Positions 1,503 to 45,316 of a stretch of 64,000 nt of DNA are shown piece after piece. How positions within the stretch are numbered: the stretch's first letter is position 1; each line of letters begins with the position of its first letter. The notes under the pieces were generated by a model. The model did no database searches. It saw nothing but the letters and a program-made list of their open reading frames with translations, and was not told the origin of the DNA. The DNA lies in the NCBI GenBank assembly GCA_024790105.1, contig GCA_024790105.1_3053.1. The stretch is one strand, 5' to 3'. Source of the DNA: a phage. A program made the position numbers and the translations under genes.

Positions 1503-2199
<697 letters not shown>

Positions 2200-2200
<1 letters not shown>

Positions 2201-2913
2201 TATAGTACCTTTAGTGTATTTTTAATTTTAGAAAAAAGTTCTTCAAGAGAACCATCGTTTGTAATTACTAAATCGCCATCACGAATTGGCAATCCAGCTT
2301 CTGTAATATGTGTATCATTGGATTTTTGACCAGGACGAACTACATGAATTACTGTAGCACCCATCGCCCTAGCCGCATCCATTTCATGATCTTGACGAGT
2401 ATCAGGAACGATATAATAATCATAACCTGAGTTAAATTTATCAAGATAATCTAAAGCAAATAATTTTACCCAATACATGCGGTCGAAGTTATTAACAATC
2501 AAATCCGTACCTAGGGCTTGCATCAGACGACGGACTGACCATTGATCTTCAATATTATTTATAACGTCAGCAATCTTGTTAAATGCTACGAAATTAACTG
2601 CGTCATCAAAAACAAACACACCTTTAATTGGGCTTTTACTATTAAGATAGCAAAATGCTTGTTCCATAATCGTAATTACTTCTAATTTAGTCAGATTTAA
2701 ATTAGTTTCACGATCATAGTCAATTCCTTCAAACTCTTTACGAGTTAAACAAGGATAGTCAGTGTTTTCTGCAAATACACCCCATGCATAAGCCAATGCA
2801 TCTTTAATAGGACCAGCAAGTTGATATTTAACTGCAGAATAATTATTCATGATAAAATCTGCAGTAGTATCTTTTCCACTGCGCTTTACACCACTTAAAA
2901 AGATTAGTTTCAT
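2200..2913 (-). CDS. 1: deoxynucleoside monophosphate kinase (gp1)
   Basis: MKLIFLSGVKRSGKDTTADF P-loop start; ATG at 2911-2913 preceded by GAGGAG; ORF-track start at 2952 is probably an upstream extension. Confidence 0.9.
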
Positions 2914-2962
2914 GTGTTTCTCCTCAAATTTAATTAAGATTATAACACACAAAACTGAAGCA

Positions 2963-3493
2963 TTAAACTTCTGCTATAATTTTTCCATCTTTTTCTACTT
3001 GAAAATAGGTGTAAGGAATCGTTGCAGTACATACTAAAGCCGGGTCTGAATCTTCCGTGTAGCTAAATTCTACTTCAGACAGATCAGAAACCCAAGGCTT
3101 ATAAAAATTTATTGACATCACGATTTCAGTTTTACTATTATCTAAAATGTAAAGCGTAATGTATTCAGGACCTGTTTTTTGGGCAGTATTTTCGCCTGTA
3201 AGATAGTTGCTAGTTCCTAGCATCCATTCATACATTCCTATCCATGACTTAAGTTCTTCATCAACTATAAATCTCACGATGAGTGGGTCGTACTCAAATG
3301 TAACACCTGGACGTTGTGCTCGGCCTAGTCCAAACGGCCCAGTCACGGTATCAGTAACAGGTATCCTAATTCCCGGAATAGGAACTGACTGAGCATTTAA
3401 AGTAAAAGCAGATGTAGTATTACTATGTGGTATTGATACTACAAAGTTAGTTGTATTTGCTTGGTTAAAAATTTGTTGCAGAGCTTGCGACAT
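2963..3493 (-). CDS. 3: tail completion / tube terminator protein gp3
   Basis: synteny 1-3-2-4; internal ATG (MSQALQQ...) with GAGGAA RBS gives 176 aa. Confidence 0.75.
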   Translation of the reverse strand: MSQALQQIFNQANTTNFVVSIPHSNTTSAFTLNAQSVPIPGIRIPVTDTVTGPFGLGRAQRPGVTFEYDPLIVRFIVDEELKSWIGMYEWMLGTSNYLTGENTAQKTGPEYITLYILDNSKTEIVMSINFYKPWVSDLSEVEFSYTEDSDPALVCTATIPYTYFQVEKDGKIIAEV

Positions 3494-3599
3494 ATATTCC
3501 TCATAATGCTTTATAACTGTTAGTGGTATAATGGGTCTAAGTCCCTTCCATTCAATTCCATTTAGAACAAACAACAGAAAAGAATGGAAGATAATAGAA

Positions 3600-21460: not shown

Positions 21461-23971
<2,511 letters not shown>

Positions 23972-40937: not shown

Positions 40938-41618
40938 TTATTTTAATGTTACGAAAGAAGAATTACGTGTTTCACGAATTAGAACTGATCCGTCGCGATT
41001 AATGTAATAAATTAAGCTAAATAAAGTTTGGTGCGCCGACGCGTGTTCAAAACTAGTTGGGTGAGATTTCCAATCCGGAGTTTCAGCAATCCACTGGTAA
41101 ATCCACCAAGGAACGGTGCAGAATCCTGGATTTTTTCCAATCAGCTGAAGATTCGGACTAAAGTTTTCCGGAAGAGTAAATACAGACGGCTTTTCAGATT
41201 CAATAATCTCAGCTACAGCCTGCTCGAATTTTTCTTCAACAAAAGGAGTATCTTCAATCAAAACATCGGTATTTTCAGGAATTTTATCCGTTTCTACTAC
41301 TTCAATTTTAATATCAGATTTAACTGGAGAATCAATCAGAAGTGCTGCTTCTGGATTAACTTCTTCATCGTCATATTTTAATCCCTCTGCAGCATCAGCA
41401 GCATCAATTAAGTCTTTAATAGATAACCCATCAGTCTCTGGCATAGGTTCACTAGCGAGCTTCTGGAGGGCTTCTTCAATATCAGCAACGATATTATCAA
41501 AAGATTTATTCTTTTTGACCTTTATACCAAACTGTTCAGCATATTCAGCTAATTTAGCTTTAGCTTCTTTATTATCATCAAGAGCCTTCAGCTCTGCAAT
41601 ATAATCTTTATCTATCAT
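40938..41618 (-). CDS. inh: Inh, inhibitor of prohead protease
   Basis: 226 aa; position between hoc and uvsW region. Confidence 0.7.
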   Translation of the reverse strand: MIDKDYIAELKALDDNKEAKAKLAEYAEQFGIKVKKNKSFDNIVADIEEALQKLASEPMPETDGLSIKDLIDAADAAEGLKYDDEEVNPEAALLIDSPVKSDIKIEVVETDKIPENTDVLIEDTPFVEEKFEQAVAEIIESEKPSVFTLPENFSPNLQLIGKNPGFCTVPWWIYQWIAETPDWKSHPTSFEHASAHQTLFSLIYYINRDGSVLIRETRNSSFVTLK

Positions 41619-41631
41619 AATATTTCCTCAG

Positions 41632-41639
41632 TATAAATA
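41632..41639 (+). promoter_or_regulatory. late-promoter-like TATAAATA upstream of the GIY-YIG gene
   Basis: exact TATAAATA 28 nt upstream of ATG 41668. Confidence 0.45.
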
Positions 41640-41667
41640 TAGATATATTTATTACTCGGAAAATAGT

Positions 41668-42285
41668 ATGTACCACTTTGTATATGAAACAACAAATCTA
41701 ATAAATGGTAAAAAGTATATAGGAAAACACTCTACTGATGACTTGAATGATGGTTACCTTGGTTCCGGTAAGGCAATTCAGCAGGCTATAAAGAAATATG
41801 GTGAAAACAATTTCTCTAGAACAATACTAAAAGAGTTTAAAACTTCCGAAGAAGCGTACATGTATGAAGAAGAAATTATAACTCCTGAAATAATAAAAAG
41901 CAAAAATTATTATAATATGAAACCCGGTGGAATTGGTGGAATTGTTATGACTACAGAGGTTATAGCAAAGATGAAAGAATCTTCCGCTAAGAGATTTGAA
42001 AACTCACCGGGCACGGTATTAGGTACAACTTGTTACACTAATGGAACTAAAAATATTTTTATTAAACCTGGAGAACTTGTTCCAGAAGGATTTGTAAAAG
42101 GGATGGTTCATCCTAATAGAAAGTCCAGAAAAGGATGTAAAGTCAAACCGACTACCACAGGAACTTTTTGGGTCAATAATGGTGCAATAAATAAATTAAT
42201 ACAGCCAGACGGTATTATTCCCGACGGATTTATTAAAGGTCGTCTCATGAAAAGAGATTCTAAAGGCAAATTTAGTAAGGCATAA
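41668..42285 (+). CDS. segE: GIY-YIG homing endonuclease (SegE-like)
   Basis: MYHFVYETTNLINGKKYIGKH GIY-YIG motif; 205 aa; sits immediately upstream of uvsW. Confidence 0.75.
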   Translation: MYHFVYETTNLINGKKYIGKHSTDDLNDGYLGSGKAIQQAIKKYGENNFSRTILKEFKTSEEAYMYEEEIITPEIIKSKNYYNMKPGGIGGIVMTTEVIAKMKESSAKRFENSPGTVLGTTCYTNGTKNIFIKPGELVPEGFVKGMVHPNRKSRKGCKVKPTTTGTFWVNNGAINKLIQPDGIIPDGFIKGRLMKRDSKGKFSKA

Positions 42286-42287
42286 TT

Positions 42288-43796
42288 ATGGATATTAAAG
42301 TACATTTTCACGACTTCAGTCATGTACGCATCGATTGTGAAGAGAGCACGTTCCACGAATTAAGAGATTTCTTTTCGTTTGAGGCCGATGGATATAGATT
42401 TAACCCTCGCTTCAGATATGGCAACTGGGATGGACGAATCCGTCTTTTAGATTATAATCGTCTTCTTCCATTCGGCTTAGTCGGGCAAATTAAAAAGTTC
42501 TGTGATAACTTTGGCTATAAAGCCTGGATTGACCCACAAATTAACGAAAAAGAAGAATTATCAAGAAAAGATTTTGATGAATGGCTTTCTAAATTAGAAA
42601 TCTATTCAGGAAATAAAAGAATTGAACCACATTGGTATCAAAAAGATGCAGTGTTCGAAGGATTAGTTAATCGTCGTAGAATTCTTAATCTTCCAACATC
42701 CGCTGGTAAATCGTTAATTCAAGCTTTGCTTGCGCGATATTATTTGGAAAATTACGAAGGTAAAATTCTTATCATTGTTCCAACAACTGCTCTAACAACT
42801 CAGATGGCTGATGACTTTGTTGACTATCGTTTATTCAGTCATGCAATGATAAAGAAAATTGGTGGCGGAGCATCAAAAGATGATAAATGTAAAAATGATG
42901 CACCAGTCATTGTTGGTACATGGCAAACTGTAGTTAAACAGCCCAAAGAGTGGTTTTCTCAGTTTGGAATGATGATGAATGATGAATGCCATCTTGCTAC
43001 AGGAAAAAGTATTTCATCTATCATATCAGGTTTAAATAACTGCATGTTCAAATTCGGTTTGTCTGGTTCATTACGTGATGGCAAAGCCAATATCATGCAG
43101 TATGTTGGAATGTTTGGTGAAATATTTAAGCCAGTAACGACTTCTAAGTTAATGGAAGATGGACAAGTAACTGAGCTAAAAATTAATAGTATTTTTCTTC
43201 GCTATCCCGATGAGTTCACTACTAAATTAAAGGGAAAAACTTACCAAGAAGAAATAAAAATTATTACTGGGCTCAGTAAAAGAAATAAATGGATCGCTAA
43301 ATTAGCTATTAAGCTTGCGCAAAAAGATGAAAACGCTTTTGTCATGTTTAAACATGTATCACATGGTAAAGCTATTTTCGATTTAATTAAAAATGAATAC
43401 GATAAAGTTTATTACGTATCAGGGGAAGTTGATACCGAAACCCGCAACGTAATGAAAACTTTAGCTGAAAACGGTAAAGGAATAATTATAGTAGCTAGTT
43501 ATGGCGTATTTTCTACTGGTATTTCAGTTAAAAATCTGCATCATGTTGTTTTAGCGCACGGCGTTAAATCAAAAATTATTGTATTACAAACAATCGGTCG
43601 TGTATTACGTAAGCATGGTTCTAAGACAATAGCAACAGTCTGGGACCTCATAGATGACGCGGGTGTAGTTTCTAAATCAAAAACATCTTCTAAAAAATAC
43701 TCGCATTTAAACTATCTTTTAAAACATGGACTTGATCGTATTCAGCGTTATGCTGATGAAAAGTTTAATTATGTGATGAAAGAGGTTAAACTTTGA
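42288..43796 (+). CDS. uvsW: UvsW DNA/RNA helicase
   Basis: 502 aa; Walker A PTSAGKS, DECH box MMNDECH. Confidence 0.9.
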   Translation: MDIKVHFHDFSHVRIDCEESTFHELRDFFSFEADGYRFNPRFRYGNWDGRIRLLDYNRLLPFGLVGQIKKFCDNFGYKAWIDPQINEKEELSRKDFDEWLSKLEIYSGNKRIEPHWYQKDAVFEGLVNRRRILNLPTSAGKSLIQALLARYYLENYEGKILIIVPTTALTTQMADDFVDYRLFSHAMIKKIGGGASKDDKCKNDAPVIVGTWQTVVKQPKEWFSQFGMMMNDECHLATGKSISSIISGLNNCMFKFGLSGSLRDGKANIMQYVGMFGEIFKPVTTSKLMEDGQVTELKINSIFLRYPDEFTTKLKGKTYQEEIKIITGLSKRNKWIAKLAIKLAQKDENAFVMFKHVSHGKAIFDLIKNEYDKVYYVSGEVDTETRNVMKTLAENGKGIIIVASYGVFSTGISVKNLHHVVLAHGVKSKIIVLQTIGRVLRKHGSKTIATVWDLIDDAGVVSKSKTSSKKYSHLNYLLKHGLDRIQRYADEKFNYVMKEVKL

Positions 43797-44485
43797 ATTA
43801 TAAATTAATATATGATAATTTAATTAATAGAGCCCAGAATCGGGCTCGCATTAGTGGATACACTGAAACTCATCATATAATTCCTAGATGTATGGGTGGT
43901 ACAGATGATAAGTGTAATTTAGTAGAACTAACGGCTGAAGAACATTTTATAGCCCATAAACTTTTAGCTAAAATTCATCCAAACCATTACGGTATAATTA
44001 AAGCTGTTATATGTATGGGGATGAATTCAAATACTCATGAAAGACACGTTAATAAATCTTACGCATGGGAACGTCGTAAAATGGCAGAACTTCAATCCGG
44101 CGAAGGTAATCCATTTTACGGAAAACACCATACGGAAGAACATAAACAATATATGTCAAAACTCATGAAAAGTCGTCCAATTACATGGGGAAATAAAATT
44201 AGTAAAACTAAAAGAATGAACCCAACGAAATGGACTGAAGAAGCTAAAAGATTACATTCAATCAATCAATCGGGTAAAAATAACGGCATGTATGGAAGGA
44301 AACATTCCGCTAAATCTATTCAGAAAATTAAAGATAACATGCCGGATAATTCAGGAGCTAATAACCCAGCTGCTAAACCTATAGAAGTAAATGGTGTTAA
44401 ATATAAATGTATGAAAGATGCTTCTAAAGCTACTGGATTATCAATGTACAAACTAAGAATACTTAGAAAAACAGTTAATTTATAA
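43793..44485 (+). CDS. HNH family homing endonuclease (Mob-like), paralog of 22387-23199
   Basis: N-terminus MNYKLIYDNLINRAQNR...HHIIPRCMGGTDDKCNLVELTAEEHFIAH parallels the other HNH ORF; overlaps uvsW stop. Confidence 0.8.
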   Translation: MNYKLIYDNLINRAQNRARISGYTETHHIIPRCMGGTDDKCNLVELTAEEHFIAHKLLAKIHPNHYGIIKAVICMGMNSNTHERHVNKSYAWERRKMAELQSGEGNPFYGKHHTEEHKQYMSKLMKSRPITWGNKISKTKRMNPTKWTEEAKRLHSINQSGKNNGMYGRKHSAKSIQKIKDNMPDNSGANNPAAKPIEVNGVKYKCMKDASKATGLSMYKLRILRKTVNL

Positions 44486-44510
44486 GGGCTTCGGCCCTTT
44501 GGAGAAAAAG

Positions 44511-44741
44511 ATGTTACTAGGATTTAAACAATTTCTTTATGAAGCTTCTATTGATGAATTTATGGGTAAAATTGCCTCTTGCCAAACATTAGAAGGTTTA
44601 GAAGAACTTGAAGCTTATTATAAGAAAAGAGTTAAAGAAACTGAATTAAAAGATACTGATGACATCTCTGTAAGAGATGCTTTGGCAGGAAAAAGAGCTG
44701 AATTAGAAGATTCAGACGATGAAGTAGAAGAAAGCTTTTAA
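44511..44741 (+). CDS. uvsW.1: UvsW.1-like small acidic protein
   Basis: ATG at 44511 after GGAGAAAAAG gives 76 aa. Confidence 0.6.
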   Translation: MLLGFKQFLYEASIDEFMGKIASCQTLEGLEELEAYYKKRVKETELKDTDDISVRDALAGKRAELEDSDDEVEESF

Positions 44742-44797
44742 ATTAAAAAAAGGCCCAACCAAAAAGGAAGGGCCAAAACTATAGACTAAAGGTCACA

Positions 44798-44965
44798 CTA
44801 TAGCAAAAGTTGTGTTTCATTTAATTGTTCTTCCGAACTTTCTGAAACTGGTAGTTCTTTAATGTAATTATAGCAAGGCCCAGGATGTACAGGACCTTTG
44901 TCTGTTTCAACAACCAATGCAGAATCGATTGGAGTTTTACAGACAACACAAATCTTATCTGACAT
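44798..44965 (-). CDS. small Cys-containing protein (T4 uvsY.-2 position)
   Basis: internal ATG with GGAGA RBS (MSDKICVVCK...); CxxC...C motif. Confidence 0.5.
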   Translation of the reverse strand: MSDKICVVCKTPIDSALVVETDKGPVHPGPCYNYIKELPVSESSEEQLNETQLLL

Positions 44966-44990
44966 GATTGTCTCCTTTTGAATATAGTAA

Positions 44991-44998
44991 TATTTATA
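44991..44998 (-). promoter_or_regulatory. late promoter TATAAATA (minus strand)
   Basis: exact TATAAATA on minus strand ~26 nt upstream of the 44965 start. Confidence 0.5.
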
Positions 44999-45088
44999 AA
45001 CCCATTTTAATCCGCATTTCTTGTACACGGATTAAGCAGGCTTCCATCTCTGCTAATAGTCGAAATACTTCTTTATAATCTGTCATAT

Positions 45089-45316
45089 TTACCCCATATC
45101 TCTCATATGCATATCAATGCCCATATCTTTAGAATAAAAATATTCATCAAGATATCCGGCAAATTTTCCTTTAATATAAAGGACATCTTCACCACACGGG
45201 TGGTCGGCCAGGATACGAATATCCTGACGCTTAAGATTATGCTTTTTCATTAAGAATTGAATTTCCGTTTCAAATTCTTCTTCATAATTAAAAGCATCAT
45301 CAATGTTATATCTCAT
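45089..45316 (-). CDS. hypothetical protein (T4 uvsY.-1 position)
   Basis: 75-aa ORF; synteny. Confidence 0.5.
   Translation of the reverse strand: MRYNIDDAFNYEEEFETEIQFLMKKHNLKRQDIRILADHPCGEDVLYIKGKFAGYLDEYFYSKDMGIDMHMRDMG

What the first reader, a model, noticed from the sequence alone, without database searches (positions are those of the whole stretch)
43793..44485. Second copy of the Mob-like HNH endonuclease, downstream of uvsW
Listed separately because it occupies an independent locus. Its start overlaps the uvsW stop (ATGA-type junction) and it is followed by a GGGCTTCGGCCC hairpin before uvsW.1. Its C-terminal half contains repeated H-x-EEH/K-rich NUMOD-like segments (HTEEHKQYMSKLMKSR, KHSAKSIQKIKDNM) that differ from the 22387 copy, consistent with a different target site.
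Basis: partly seen in the sequence, partly recalled or inferred. Interest (0 to 1): 0.45.

Follow-up and report, generated by a model that had tools for sequence, protein, structure and literature searches.

The report
Mob-type homing endonuclease inside uvsW's end
This is an intact selfish "homing endonuclease" gene of the well-known phage T4 Mob family, wedged into the last five codons of the uvsW helicase gene of a T6-like phage; it is an ordinary kind of element and already annotated in public genomes, though its anatomy is neat and its target has never been mapped.

Summary
The ORF is real: 43793-44485, + strand, 230 aa. It is an intact free-standing HNH homing-endonuclease gene of the T4 Mob family: a MobE-like N-terminal HNH domain, two NUMOD3 motifs and an I-TevI-like C-terminal DNA-binding end.

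- The junction is TTGA (a forced TTG start), not ATGA.
- The GGGCTTCGGCCC hairpin belongs to the native uvsW/uvsW.1 spacer, not to the insert.
- It is a distant paralogue of the 22387 gene (38% identity, N-terminal domain only), not a copy.

New findings:
- The 689-bp insert lies five codons inside uvsW. It gives uvsW a substitute tail (EVKL*), and the endonuclease ORF ends in the original uvsW tail (KTVNL*).
- It occurs in 49 of 775 matching phage records, including T6, where it is annotated "homing endonuclease". It is absent from the T2 and T4 records examined.
- Orthologues occupy the same junction in Jiaodavirus, Dhakavirus, Bragavirus and a Morganella phage.
- All 32 fixed differences between carriers and non-carriers lie in the 120 nt of uvsW just upstream. 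None lie downstream. This fits homing with one-sided co-conversion or self-immunity.

No activity data exist and I found no paper on it. It is an uncharacterised member of a known kind, of modest interest.

The parts
41632..41639 (+). T4-type late-promoter consensus TATAAATA upstream of the segE-like ORF and uvsW. It is the likely source of the transcript that carries the promoterless endonuclease gene.
   Evidence: Exact match. The same sequence context precedes uvsW in T2 and F26. No exact late or MotA-type promoter match lies between it and the ORF. Use of this promoter is inferred.
42288..43796 (+). uvsW helicase gene (502 aa), the host gene whose 3' end is invaded.
   Evidence: Pfam UvsW_N 8.6e-44, ResIII, DEAD, Helicase_C.
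43657..43781 (+). Carrier-linked variant tract of the uvsW 3' end. Block A (43657-43702) is dense and changes the protein: AGVVSKSKTSSKKYS versus CGVKPKSANTKKKYV. Block B (43708-43781) has third-codon-position changes, all synonymous except a Leu/Ile site at 43729-43730 that varies among carriers. This is the candidate region for the endonuclease's target and for self-immunity or co-conversion.
   Evidence: All 32 fixed differences between 8 carriers and 6 non-carriers fall at 43658-43774. None lie at 42290-43657 or 44471-45100. 49 records match the tract at >=95%, the same number as carry the ORF. Four insert-less phages carry block A only.
43782..44470 (+). The 689-bp insertion relative to insert-less T-even phages. 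The boundaries are ambiguous by the AAA repeat (43779-43781 / 44468-44470).
   Evidence: Alignments with T2 and five other empty sites. Length difference 2810 versus 2121 nt.
43782..43796 (+). Substitute uvsW tail GAG GTT AAA CTT TGA (EVKL*), which replaces the native ACA GTT AAT TTA TAA (TVNL*). It contains the Shine-Dalgarno-like GAGGT (43782-43786), six bases before the TTG start.
   Evidence: The same K-E-V-x-L/I tail with GAGG is found in carriers of other genera.
43793..44485 (+). Homing-endonuclease ORF, 230 aa, with a TTG start that overlaps the uvsW TGA.
   Evidence: Intact in all 10 T6-type copies examined, with 28 silent versus 11 amino-acid-changing polymorphic sites. dN/dS is 0.12-0.33 against orthologues.
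43793..43978 (+). N-terminal Mob-type HNH nuclease domain (about residues 1-62). Motif residues: H27-H28 (43871-43876), N42 (43916-43918), H51 (43943-43945), H55 (43955-43957).
   Evidence: Invariant or near-invariant columns in 34 homologues. Pfam HNH E 0.006, below the cut-off. AlphaFold pLDDT above 90 for residues 1-70, with two strands followed by a helix. Weak Foldseek hits to HNH domains.
43830..43847 (+). GC-rich hairpin GAGCCC-AGAAUC-GGGCUC inside codons 13-18. It is the positional counterpart of the weak internal terminator of T4 mobE, but here no U-tract follows.
   Evidence: It is the strongest local hairpin in the ORF (-12.3 kcal/mol, z -4.3). A hairpin with a different stem sequence is found at ORF nt 30-60 in 9 of 9 Mob ORFs examined. 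mobE terminator: PMC2790892.
44072..44158 (+). First NUMOD3 motif (residues 94-122, GEGNPFYGKHHTEEHKQYMSKL).
   Evidence: Pfam PF07460, 51.9 bits against a cut-off of 20.4, two stretches.
44261..44440 (+). Second NUMOD3-like helix plus a helix-turn-helix-like end (residues 157-216), resembling the I-TevI DNA-binding domain.
   Evidence: phmmer against PDB 1i3j E 0.006. Foldseek top hit 1i3j_A, probability 1.00, E 0.05. Pfam I-TevI_DNA-bd and TIGR01453 are both below their cut-offs.
44471..44485 (+). Native uvsW terminus ACA GTT AAT TTA TAA, now read as the last four codons and stop of the endonuclease ORF.
   Evidence: 100% identical to the uvsW end of hundreds of insert-less phages.
44486..44497 (+). 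GGGCUUCGGCCC tetraloop hairpin of the native uvsW/uvsW.1 spacer. It is not part of the insert.
   Evidence: Present identically in carriers and non-carriers. Fold -9.3 kcal/mol. Not scored as a terminator.
44511..44741 (+). uvsW.1 (76 aa) with its own GGAG (44501-44504). It is unchanged by the insertion.
   Evidence: Pfam UvsW-1 1.7e-30. No fixed carrier/non-carrier difference. T2 annotation.

Best explanation
ORF 43793-44485 is an intact, free-standing homing-endonuclease gene of the T4 Mob (HNH) family. It is specialised for the uvsW/uvsW.1 junction of T4-like phages.

Shown by the sequence and comparisons:
- A 689-bp cassette sits five codons before the end of uvsW.
- The cassette gives uvsW a replacement tail (EVKL*), which also carries a GAGGT ribosome-binding site.
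- The endonuclease ORF starts at a TTG that overlaps the uvsW stop. It ends in the original uvsW tail (KTVNL*), ahead of the native hairpin and uvsW.1.
- The protein has a MobE-like HNH domain, two NUMOD3 motifs and an I-TevI-like C-terminal DNA-binding end.
- The cassette is present in about 6% of related records and absent from the rest.
- Orthologues sit at the same junction in at least four other phage lineages.
- Carriers share a variant uvsW 3' tract on the upstream side only.

Inferred mechanism:
1. The gene has no promoter of its own. It is co-transcribed with uvsW from the late promoter at 41632.
2. It is translated at a low level, by coupling or re-initiation at the weak TTG.
3. In a mixed infection with an insert-less relative, the C-terminal modules bind the 3' end of that phage's uvsW. 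The HNH domain nicks or cuts within the last ~140 nt, as T4 MobE nicks T2 nrdB about 120 nt from its own insertion point.
4. Recombinational repair copies the cassette and the adjacent variant uvsW tract into the broken genome.
5. The carrier is immune because the site is split by the insert and altered at mostly synonymous positions.
For: Identity of the protein:
- PHROG 655 E 2e-60. NUMOD3 above the Pfam cut-off.
- 43% identity to T4 MobE, E 1e-34.
- HNH motif residues invariant in 34 homologues.
- I-TevI DNA-binding-domain similarity by sequence and by fold.

Intactness:
- 10 of 10 copies have an open reading frame. Silent changes outnumber replacement changes, and dN/dS is 0.12-0.33.

Mobility footprints:
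- 49 of 775 records carry the ORF. The T2 and T4 records examined lack it: T2 locus L003 is an empty site, and the best matches in T4 are the paralogues mobE and mobB.
- The empty-site and occupied-site junctions are exact.
- 32 of 32 fixed differences fall in the 120 nt upstream and none downstream.
- The tract and the ORF give the same record count, 49 and 49.
- The same one-sided pattern is seen in Jiaodavirus (13 carriers among ~145 close records) and in Dhakavirus.

Site fidelity:
- Orthologues of 54-69% identity in Jiaodavirus, Dhakavirus (PSD2002), Bragavirus PM2, Morganella phage Rgz1 and a metagenome contig all lie between uvsW and uvsW.1 and overlap the uvsW stop by 4 nt.

Expression logic matches MobE:
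- MobE is promoterless, its start overlaps the upstream stop, and it has an internal 5' hairpin (PMC2988022; PMC2790892).
Against: - There is no biochemical or genetic evidence for this protein, and I found no paper describing it.
- A TTG start implies low expression.
- Endonuclease divergence between genera roughly tracks UvsW and UvsW.1 divergence. That also fits long vertical residence with occasional loss rather than frequent homing.
- No close donor for the T6-type uvsW tract is in the collection; the best other alleles are 73-76% identical.
- The position of the target is inferred only. The candidate sub-sites (block A, block B or the junction) cannot be told apart. One candidate segment reads the same in Jiaodavirus carriers and in T-even non-carriers.
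Confidence: 0.85

Rival explanations
1. It is a resident, no-longer-mobile or domesticated nuclease gene. It would be inherited mostly vertically at this junction and lost sporadically, and kept for another role, for example excluding or degrading co-infecting relatives, or an effect on uvsW/uvsW.1 expression.
For: Its divergence between genera parallels that of UvsW and UvsW.1. It is under purifying selection. Its weak TTG or GTG start is found in 5 of 7 lineages. All 49 Tequatrovirus carriers share one set of junctions, which indicates a single origin.
Against: It is rare within each genus: about 6% of Tequatrovirus-region records and about 9% of Jiaodavirus. It occurs in otherwise mosaic backgrounds, with or without the neighbouring segE-like gene. 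The sharply bounded carrier-linked tract, repeated in three genera, is what gene conversion from a break produces. Simple deletion would not leave a variant tract confined to carriers.
Confidence: 0.1
2. It is an intron-encoded endonuclease, or part of a group I intron. Several GenBank records label it 'group I intron endonuclease'.
For: TIGR01453 'group I intron endonuclease' hits the C-terminal half (E 4e-7). The I-TevI DNA-binding domain is the best solved-structure match.
Against: The TIGR01453 score is below its cut-off (30 versus 56 bits). No Rfam intron or any other RNA family is found at 41500-45300. The 689-bp insert is filled by the 693-nt ORF, which leaves no room for intron RNA. 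Both flanks are ordinary coding sequence.
Confidence: 0.01
3. The insertion created a 'gene in pieces' by splitting one uvsW helicase gene into uvsW-A and uvsW-B. Some records annotate it this way, and the case would resemble Aeh1 mobE in nrdA.
For: Annotations in phage PST and others name the flanks uvsW-A and uvsW-B. The insertion does lie inside the uvsW reading frame, by five codons.
Against: uvsW and uvsW.1 are separate ORFs in insert-less phages: T2, wV7 and others, and the Jiaodavirus empty site. They are also reported as separate in T4 after resequencing (PMC1524935). Only the last four residues of UvsW are exchanged (TVNL to EVKL).
Confidence: 0.02
4. It is a recent duplicate ('second copy') of the HNH gene at 22387-23199 in the same genome.
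For: The two share the Mob-type N-terminal domain and the same PHROG family. Both have the 5' hairpin.
Against: They are only 38% identical over ~117 residues, and the C-terminal halves do not align. The present ORF is closer to T4 MobE (43%) and to its orthologues in other genera (54-69%) than to the 22387 ORF.
Confidence: 0.01

Closest known systems
T4 MobE (free-standing HNH homing endonuclease between nrdA and nrdB; Wilson & Edgell 2009, PMC2790892)
   Same: The N-terminal HNH domain is 43% identical over 181 aa. Both genes are promoterless and lie inside a host operon. In both, the start codon overlaps the upstream stop. Both have a GC-rich hairpin about 30 nt into the ORF (paper). Both are polymorphic among T-even phages. 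For MobE the target lies in the adjacent conserved gene, about 120 nt from the insertion. That matches the position of the carrier-linked tract here.
   Different: The C-terminus here is NUMOD3 plus an I-TevI-like end, not MobE's CPHC zinc-finger-type motif. The start is TTG instead of AUG. No U-tract follows the hairpin, so terminator function is doubtful. The cassette lies inside the upstream gene's last codons and borrows its stop codon. The polymorphic tract lies upstream of the endonuclease gene rather than downstream. Activity is untested.
I-TevI (GIY-YIG intron endonuclease of T4 td), DNA-binding domain only
   Same: Residues 157-216 align with the minor-groove helix and helix-turn-helix part of PDB 1i3j. 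Both show the modular NUMOD-type architecture.
   Different: The catalytic domain here is HNH, not GIY-YIG. No intron is present. The similarity is below the Pfam and TIGRFAM cut-offs.
Aeh1 MobE / T4 MobA insertions that split nrdA and gene 39/60 (review PMC2988022)
   Same: In each case a Mob-type endonuclease gene is inserted inside a conserved replication or repair gene's reading frame, and host function is preserved.
   Different: Those insertions split the host protein into two functional pieces. Here only the last four residues are swapped and no gene is split.
T4 SegE (GIY-YIG; inserted between inh and uvsW; target gene uvsW; PMC2988022 Table 1)
   Same: It parasitises the same host gene. 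A segE-like ORF sits at 41668-42285 in this window, so uvsW is bracketed by two homing-endonuclease genes.
   Different: It belongs to a different nuclease family and sits at the opposite end of uvsW. The two elements assort independently among phages.

Membership tests
HNH (beta-beta-alpha-metal) nuclease superfamily | Conserved His-His ... Asn ... His motif residues | tested here: met
   H28, N42, H51 and H55 are invariant, and H27 is at least 90% conserved, in an alignment of 34 homologues.
HNH (beta-beta-alpha-metal) nuclease superfamily | Score above the curated Pfam HNH (PF01844) threshold | tested here: not met
   17.1 bits against a cut-off of 21.4, E 0.006. Mob-type HNH domains are divergent. 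PHROG homing-endonuclease profiles match strongly.
HNH (beta-beta-alpha-metal) nuclease superfamily | Beta-beta-alpha fold similar to solved HNH domains | tested here: inconclusive
HNH (beta-beta-alpha-metal) nuclease superfamily | Metal-dependent DNA nicking or cleavage | not testable with these tools
   Needs an enzyme assay.
T4 Mob-type free-standing homing endonucleases | N-terminal domain homologous to MobA-E | tested here: met
   43% identity, E 1e-34 to T4 MobE. tblastn hits to mobE and mobB of T4. PHROG 655.
T4 Mob-type free-standing homing endonucleases | Free-standing gene (no intron or intein) next to conserved genes, in the same orientation, without its own promoter | tested here: met
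   No Rfam intron. The ORF fills the insert. No promoter consensus lies in the uvsW 3' end.
T4 Mob-type free-standing homing endonucleases | C-terminal zinc-finger-type DNA-binding region as in MobE | tested here: not met
   There is no CPHC...C motif. Instead the protein has NUMOD3 x2 and an I-TevI-like end. The review says only that Mob proteins have 'distinct C-terminal regions', so this does not exclude membership.
Homing endonuclease gene (functional definition) | Presence/absence polymorphism at one precise site among otherwise homologous genomes | tested here: met
   49 carriers among 775 matching records. The junctions are identical in the eight Tequatrovirus carriers aligned. Jiaodavirus has 13 carriers.
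Homing endonuclease gene (functional definition) | Flanking sequence co-inherited with the gene (co-conversion or immunity tract) | tested here: met
   32 of 32 fixed differences lie in the 120 nt upstream. The database-wide counts are equal, 49 and 49. The pattern repeats in Jiaodavirus and Dhakavirus.
Homing endonuclease gene (functional definition) | Cleavage of the empty allele and super-Mendelian inheritance | not testable with these tools
   Needs crosses and nick mapping.
NUMOD3 DNA-binding motif (PF07460) | Score above the curated threshold | tested here: met
   51.9 bits against 20.4, two stretches.
I-TevI-type DNA-binding domain (PF20987 / PDB 1i3j) | Significant sequence or fold match | tested here: inconclusive
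   Pfam 14.8 bits against a cut-off of 27. phmmer E 0.006. Foldseek probability 1.00 but E 0.05 and TM 0.46 on the target.
Group I intron-encoded endonuclease | Located inside a group I intron | tested here: not met
   No intron model matches. TIGR01453 is below its cut-off.

The most novel reading that the evidence does not exclude
The uvsW/uvsW.1 junction may host an ancient endonuclease lineage that has persisted at one site across at least five T4-like lineages. Its natural variants could capture every stage of the homing cycle.
- Susceptible empty sites: T2 and the many other insert-less records.
- Occupied immune sites: T6-type phages.
- Insert-less genomes that keep only the distal variant block: LH2 and OES_C-1/2/3. 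If the cleavage site lies in block A, these would be naturally resistant empty alleles.
- The same site occupied by a different Mob endonuclease: Bp7.

The hairpin at ORF nt 30-60, kept by compensatory changes in all nine Mob genes examined, would then be a family-wide regulatory RNA element and not merely the mobE terminator.
Probability: 0.25. Interest if true: 0.45.

Novelty: new member of a known kind. Interest (0 to 1): 0.3.

Why it matters
Only two of the T4 Mob endonucleases, MobA and MobE, are reported to nick DNA, and only MobE is listed as active with a named target gene. This member offers a clean, testable case:
- an exact empty site and occupied site;
- a one-sided tract of 32 linked substitutions that narrows the search for the target to about 140 nt;
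- natural recombinants that separate two candidate sub-sites.

It also shows how a selfish gene can enter a coding region harmlessly, by bringing a replacement tail for the host gene and reusing the host's own stop codon.

For annotation, it corrects recurring mislabels in public records: 'mobD', 'group I intron endonuclease', 'GIY-YIG', and 'uvsW-A/uvsW-B'. It does not change the current understanding of homing.

Tried and rejected
- Sequestration of the ribosome-binding site by RNA structure was not supported. The minimum-energy and centroid folds of 43760-43860 disagree around the GAGG, and only the 43830-43847 hairpin is stable.
- The GGGCTTCGGCCC hairpin is not a terminator for the insert. 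The terminator scan does not flag it, its fold is not significant against shuffles (z -1.1), and it is native to empty sites.
- I searched for the donor of the T6-type uvsW tract and found no allele closer than 73-76% outside the carriers and the four recombinants.
- IMG/VR scans gave few T-even genomes, so flank statistics rest on the GenBank phage collection.
- I tested whether the Val codon of EKFNYVMK marks the target. It is GTA in 18 of 21 empty sites and in 0 of 4 occupied sites that keep Val. Counted by lineage this is only suggestive, about 7 of 10 against 0 of 4.
- Block A as a universal target determinant is weakened, because part of it reads the same in Jiaodavirus carriers and T-even non-carriers.
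- Four literature searches found no description of this gene. Petrov et al. 2010 only count three mob-like genes in T6.
- The near-consensus late promoter TATAAATT at 43799-43806 lies inside the ORF, downstream of the start. It was not taken as the gene's promoter.
Full report
THE OBSERVATION

The window is a T6-like Tequatrovirus. The region 43000-45300 matches Escherichia phage F26, G2540-3, HY03 and T6 at 97.7-98.5% identity. The local gene order is inh (- strand), a segE-like GIY-YIG ORF (41668-42285), uvsW (42288-43796), the ORF in question (43793-44485), uvsW.1 (44511-44741), then uvsY.-2, uvsY.-1 and uvsY on the - strand.

Three details need correcting.
- The junction reads cTTTGAa. The start is TTG (43793-43795) and overlaps the uvsW TGA (43794-43796), so it is not ATGA.
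- TTG is a forced start. The frame has a TAA at 43787-43789, and the next ATG is codon 34, after the catalytic His-His.
- A GAGGT lies six bases upstream of the TTG.

Protein identity:
- Pfam finds NUMOD3 above its cut-off (two stretches, E 7e-14), HNH just below its cut-off (E 0.006) and a weak I-TevI DNA-binding match.
- PHROGs gives 'homing endonuclease' at 2e-60.
- GGGCTTCGGCCC is at 44486-44497.

WHAT THE INSERT REALLY IS

I aligned the window with insert-less T2, wV7, G4500, CrRp10, PYps14T and 4E10. The comparison shows a 689-bp insertion.
- Empty site: ...GTA ATG AAA | ACA GTT AAT TTA TAA GGGCTTCGGCCC...
- Occupied site: ...GTG ATG AAA | GAG GTT AAA CTT TGA ATT ATA ... CTT AGA AAA | ACA GTT AAT TTA TAA GGGCTTCGGCCC...

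The cassette therefore lies five codons inside uvsW, not in the spacer.
- It gives UvsW a substitute tail, EVKL* in place of TVNL*. That DNA also supplies the ribosome-binding site and the start of the endonuclease ORF.
- The endonuclease ORF runs out into the original uvsW tail and uses its stop codon.
It is native.
- uvsW and uvsW.1 are separate ORFs in the empty genomes and in the literature (PMC1524935). The 'uvsW-A/uvsW-B' split-gene annotations are therefore misleading.
- There is no intron. Rfam finds nothing, and the ORF fills the insert.

THE PROTEIN

The N-terminal ~60 residues are MobE-like:
- 43% identity over 181 aa to T4 MobE, E 1e-34.
- H28, N42, H51 and H55 are invariant, and H27 nearly so, in 34 homologues.

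The AlphaFold model has a mean pLDDT of 81, above 90 in the N-terminal domain. It shows two strands and a helix there, followed by a string of helices and a small beta-hairpin plus helices at the end.
- The best solved-structure match is the I-TevI DNA-binding domain: Foldseek probability 1.00, E 0.05, and phmmer E 0.006.
- Weak HNH-domain hits follow.

The architecture is therefore a Mob-type HNH domain, two NUMOD3 motifs and an I-TevI-like helix-turn-helix end.

The ORF at 22387-23199, between genes 13 and 14, shares only the N-terminal domain (38% over ~117 aa). It ends in two CPHC...C motifs like MobE. The two are paralogues with different DNA-binding modules.

DISTRIBUTION

In the GenBank phage collection, 49 of 775 records that match the region carry the full ORF at 95-99% protein identity.
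- The T2 and T4 records examined lack it. The T2 locus L003 is an empty site. The best matches in T4 are the paralogues mobE and mobB.

Orthologues of 54-69% identity occupy the same junction, each overlapping the uvsW stop by 4 nt:
- Klebsiella Jiaodavirus, 13 carriers among ~145 close records
- Dhakavirus-type phage PSD2002
- Proteus Bragavirus PM2
- Morganella phage Rgz1
- a metagenome contig

Dhakavirus Bp7 has a different Mob-like gene at the same site.

Start codons are TTG in four lineages, GTG in one and ATG in two.

Divergence of the endonuclease between genera (46-68% identity) parallels that of UvsW (64-77%) and UvsW.1 (51-68%). The lineage is therefore old at this site.

Selection:
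- dN/dS is 0.12-0.33 between lineages.
- All ten T6-type copies examined are intact, with 28 silent and 11 replacement polymorphic sites.
- The protein is under purifying selection.

FOOTPRINTS OF HOMING

Between 8 carriers and 6 non-carriers, every one of the 32 fixed differences lies at 43658-43774, the 120 nt of uvsW just upstream of the insert. There are none in the other ~1370 nt of uvsW and none in the 630 nt downstream.

The tract has two parts.
- Block A (43657-43702) is dense and changes the protein.
- Block B (43708-43781) consists of third-codon-position changes. All are synonymous except a Leu/Ile site at 43729-43730 that varies among carriers.

Database-wide, 49 records match the tract at >=95%, the same number as carry the ORF. 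The rest are at 90% or below.

Four insert-less phages (LH2 and OES_C-1/2/3) are recombinants with T6-type block A, T2-type block B and no cassette. The reciprocal type was not seen among the 49 carriers.

Jiaodavirus carriers show a linked variant tract of ~100 nt upstream and none downstream. Both Dhakavirus carriers show ~220 nt upstream and none downstream.

The right-hand junction also repeats across lineages.
- In PSD2002 the endonuclease ORF ends in that genus's native uvsW tail (MKQVDL*).
- In PM2 an imperfect 18-nt repeat, AAAGAGGTTAAATT[G/A]TGA, ends both uvsW and the endonuclease ORF.

This one-sided, sharply bounded pattern is what a break in the uvsW 3' end, repaired from a carrier genome, would leave. 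It equally marks the changes that protect the carrier from its own enzyme.

MECHANISM AND ITS LIMITS

By analogy with MobE, I infer the mechanism set out under the best explanation: late co-transcription with uvsW from the TATAAATA at 41632, low-level coupled translation from the TTG, a nick or cut in the last ~140 nt of an empty uvsW allele, and recombinational copying of the cassette with its variant flank. The MobE properties that support the analogy are these (PMC2790892; PMC2988022):
- It is promoterless.
- Its start overlaps the upstream stop.
- It has a weak internal terminator hairpin 27 nt after the AUG.
- It makes a strand-specific nick at nt 122-126 of T2 nrdB.

That uvsW is a late gene rests on my own knowledge of T4.

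The exact target is not resolved.
- The Val codon in EKFNYVMK is GTA in 18 of 21 empty sites from several genera and in none of the 4 occupied sites that keep Val. By lineage this is only suggestive.
- The recombinants hint at block A.
- Part of block A reads the same in Jiaodavirus carriers and T-even non-carriers.

The hairpin at 43830-43847 is the strongest in the ORF (z -4.3). It has counterparts with different stem sequences at ORF nt 30-60 in all nine Mob genes examined, including T4 mobE. Here no U-tract follows it, so whether it terminates transcription is open.

COMPARISON AND VERDICT

This is a member of the T4 Mob family by its N-terminal homology, its free-standing context and its expression layout. 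It differs from MobE in four ways:
- its DNA-binding module
- its TTG start
- sitting inside the upstream gene's last codons
- having its linked tract upstream

It is already annotated as a homing endonuclease in T6 and relatives, and it was probably counted among T6's three mob-like genes in 2010. I found no paper that describes it, its site or its target.

It is an ordinary element with a tidy, instructive anatomy: a new, uncharacterised member of a known kind, of modest interest.

Noticed in passing
window 41668-42285 (+); polymorphism-dense stretch 42300-42400: A segE-like GIY-YIG homing-endonuclease ORF sits directly upstream of uvsW, so uvsW is bracketed by two selfish genes. It is present in T6, HY03, PST, EC121 and CrRp10, and absent in F26, vB_SsoM_113, SYGD1, T2 and wV7. 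It therefore assorts independently of the HNH cassette. The first 100 nt of uvsW are the most polymorphic part of the gene (28 of 100 sites). T4 SegE is listed as targeting uvsW, and this may be related.
   Followed up: partly
window 22387-23199 (+): The other Mob-type ORF (270 aa) lies between genes 13 and 14. It has a MobE-like C-terminus with two CPHC...C zinc-finger-type motifs and the same kind of 5' hairpin (ORF nt 33-58). Its presence or absence among relatives was not examined.
   Followed up: partly
window 43799-43806 (+): TATAAATT, one base off the T4 late-promoter consensus, lies just inside the endonuclease ORF and is conserved in all eight T6-type carriers aligned. A transcript starting here would lack the TTG start. 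Its meaning is unknown.
   Followed up: no
L004 (Proteus phage PM2) 272-3004: In PM2, uvsW itself is annotated as two helicase pieces (272-1255 and 2084-3004) separated by an 875-nt 'hypothetical' ORF (1246-2121). This is a second insertion inside uvsW, possibly an intein or another endonuclease, in addition to the HNH gene at the 3' end.
   Followed up: no
L112 (phage Bp7) 154-1657 and 1654-2436: Bp7 carries a different Mob-like HNH gene (260 aa, no NUMOD3 tail, TTG start) at the same uvsW/uvsW.1 junction. Its uvsW is annotated in two pieces (154-366 and 677-1657). Two unrelated endonuclease genes thus use the same site.
   Followed up: partly
L127 and L130 (IMG/VR T4-like contigs), just after the uvsW stop: In two Yersinia-phage-like genomes, the ORF that starts at the uvsW stop is neither uvsW.1 nor a Mob-type gene (MMQPTESRLY... 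and MIFILLIAFQ...). This suggests that other insertions use the same junction.
   Followed up: no
window ~44950-45100 (- strand genes uvsY.-2 / uvsY.-1): This is a highly variable stretch among T-even phages: 68 of 100 aligned sites at 45000-45100 are polymorphic. T6-type records match the window only in two pieces across it. F26, HY03 and SYGD1 share the window's longer version.
   Followed up: no
L117 (Logan DRR827159 contig) 2897-3595 (-): An extra 232-aa ORF with no Pfam hit sits between uvsY.-2 and uvsY in a PSD2002-like contig. It may be another mobile gene in this neighbourhood.
   Followed up: no
public records matching window 43793-44485: Annotation of this gene is inconsistent: 'mobD' (PST), 'group I intron endonuclease' (G28, G2540-3, G8) and 'hypothetical protein' in many records. 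Its Jiaodavirus orthologue is labelled 'GIY-YIG homing endonuclease' (Klebsiella phages Metamorpho and Nispero). In T6 record AP018814 the neighbouring segE-like ORF is labelled 'tail tape measure protein' and uvsY is labelled 'ribonucleotide reductase large subunit'.
   Followed up: yes
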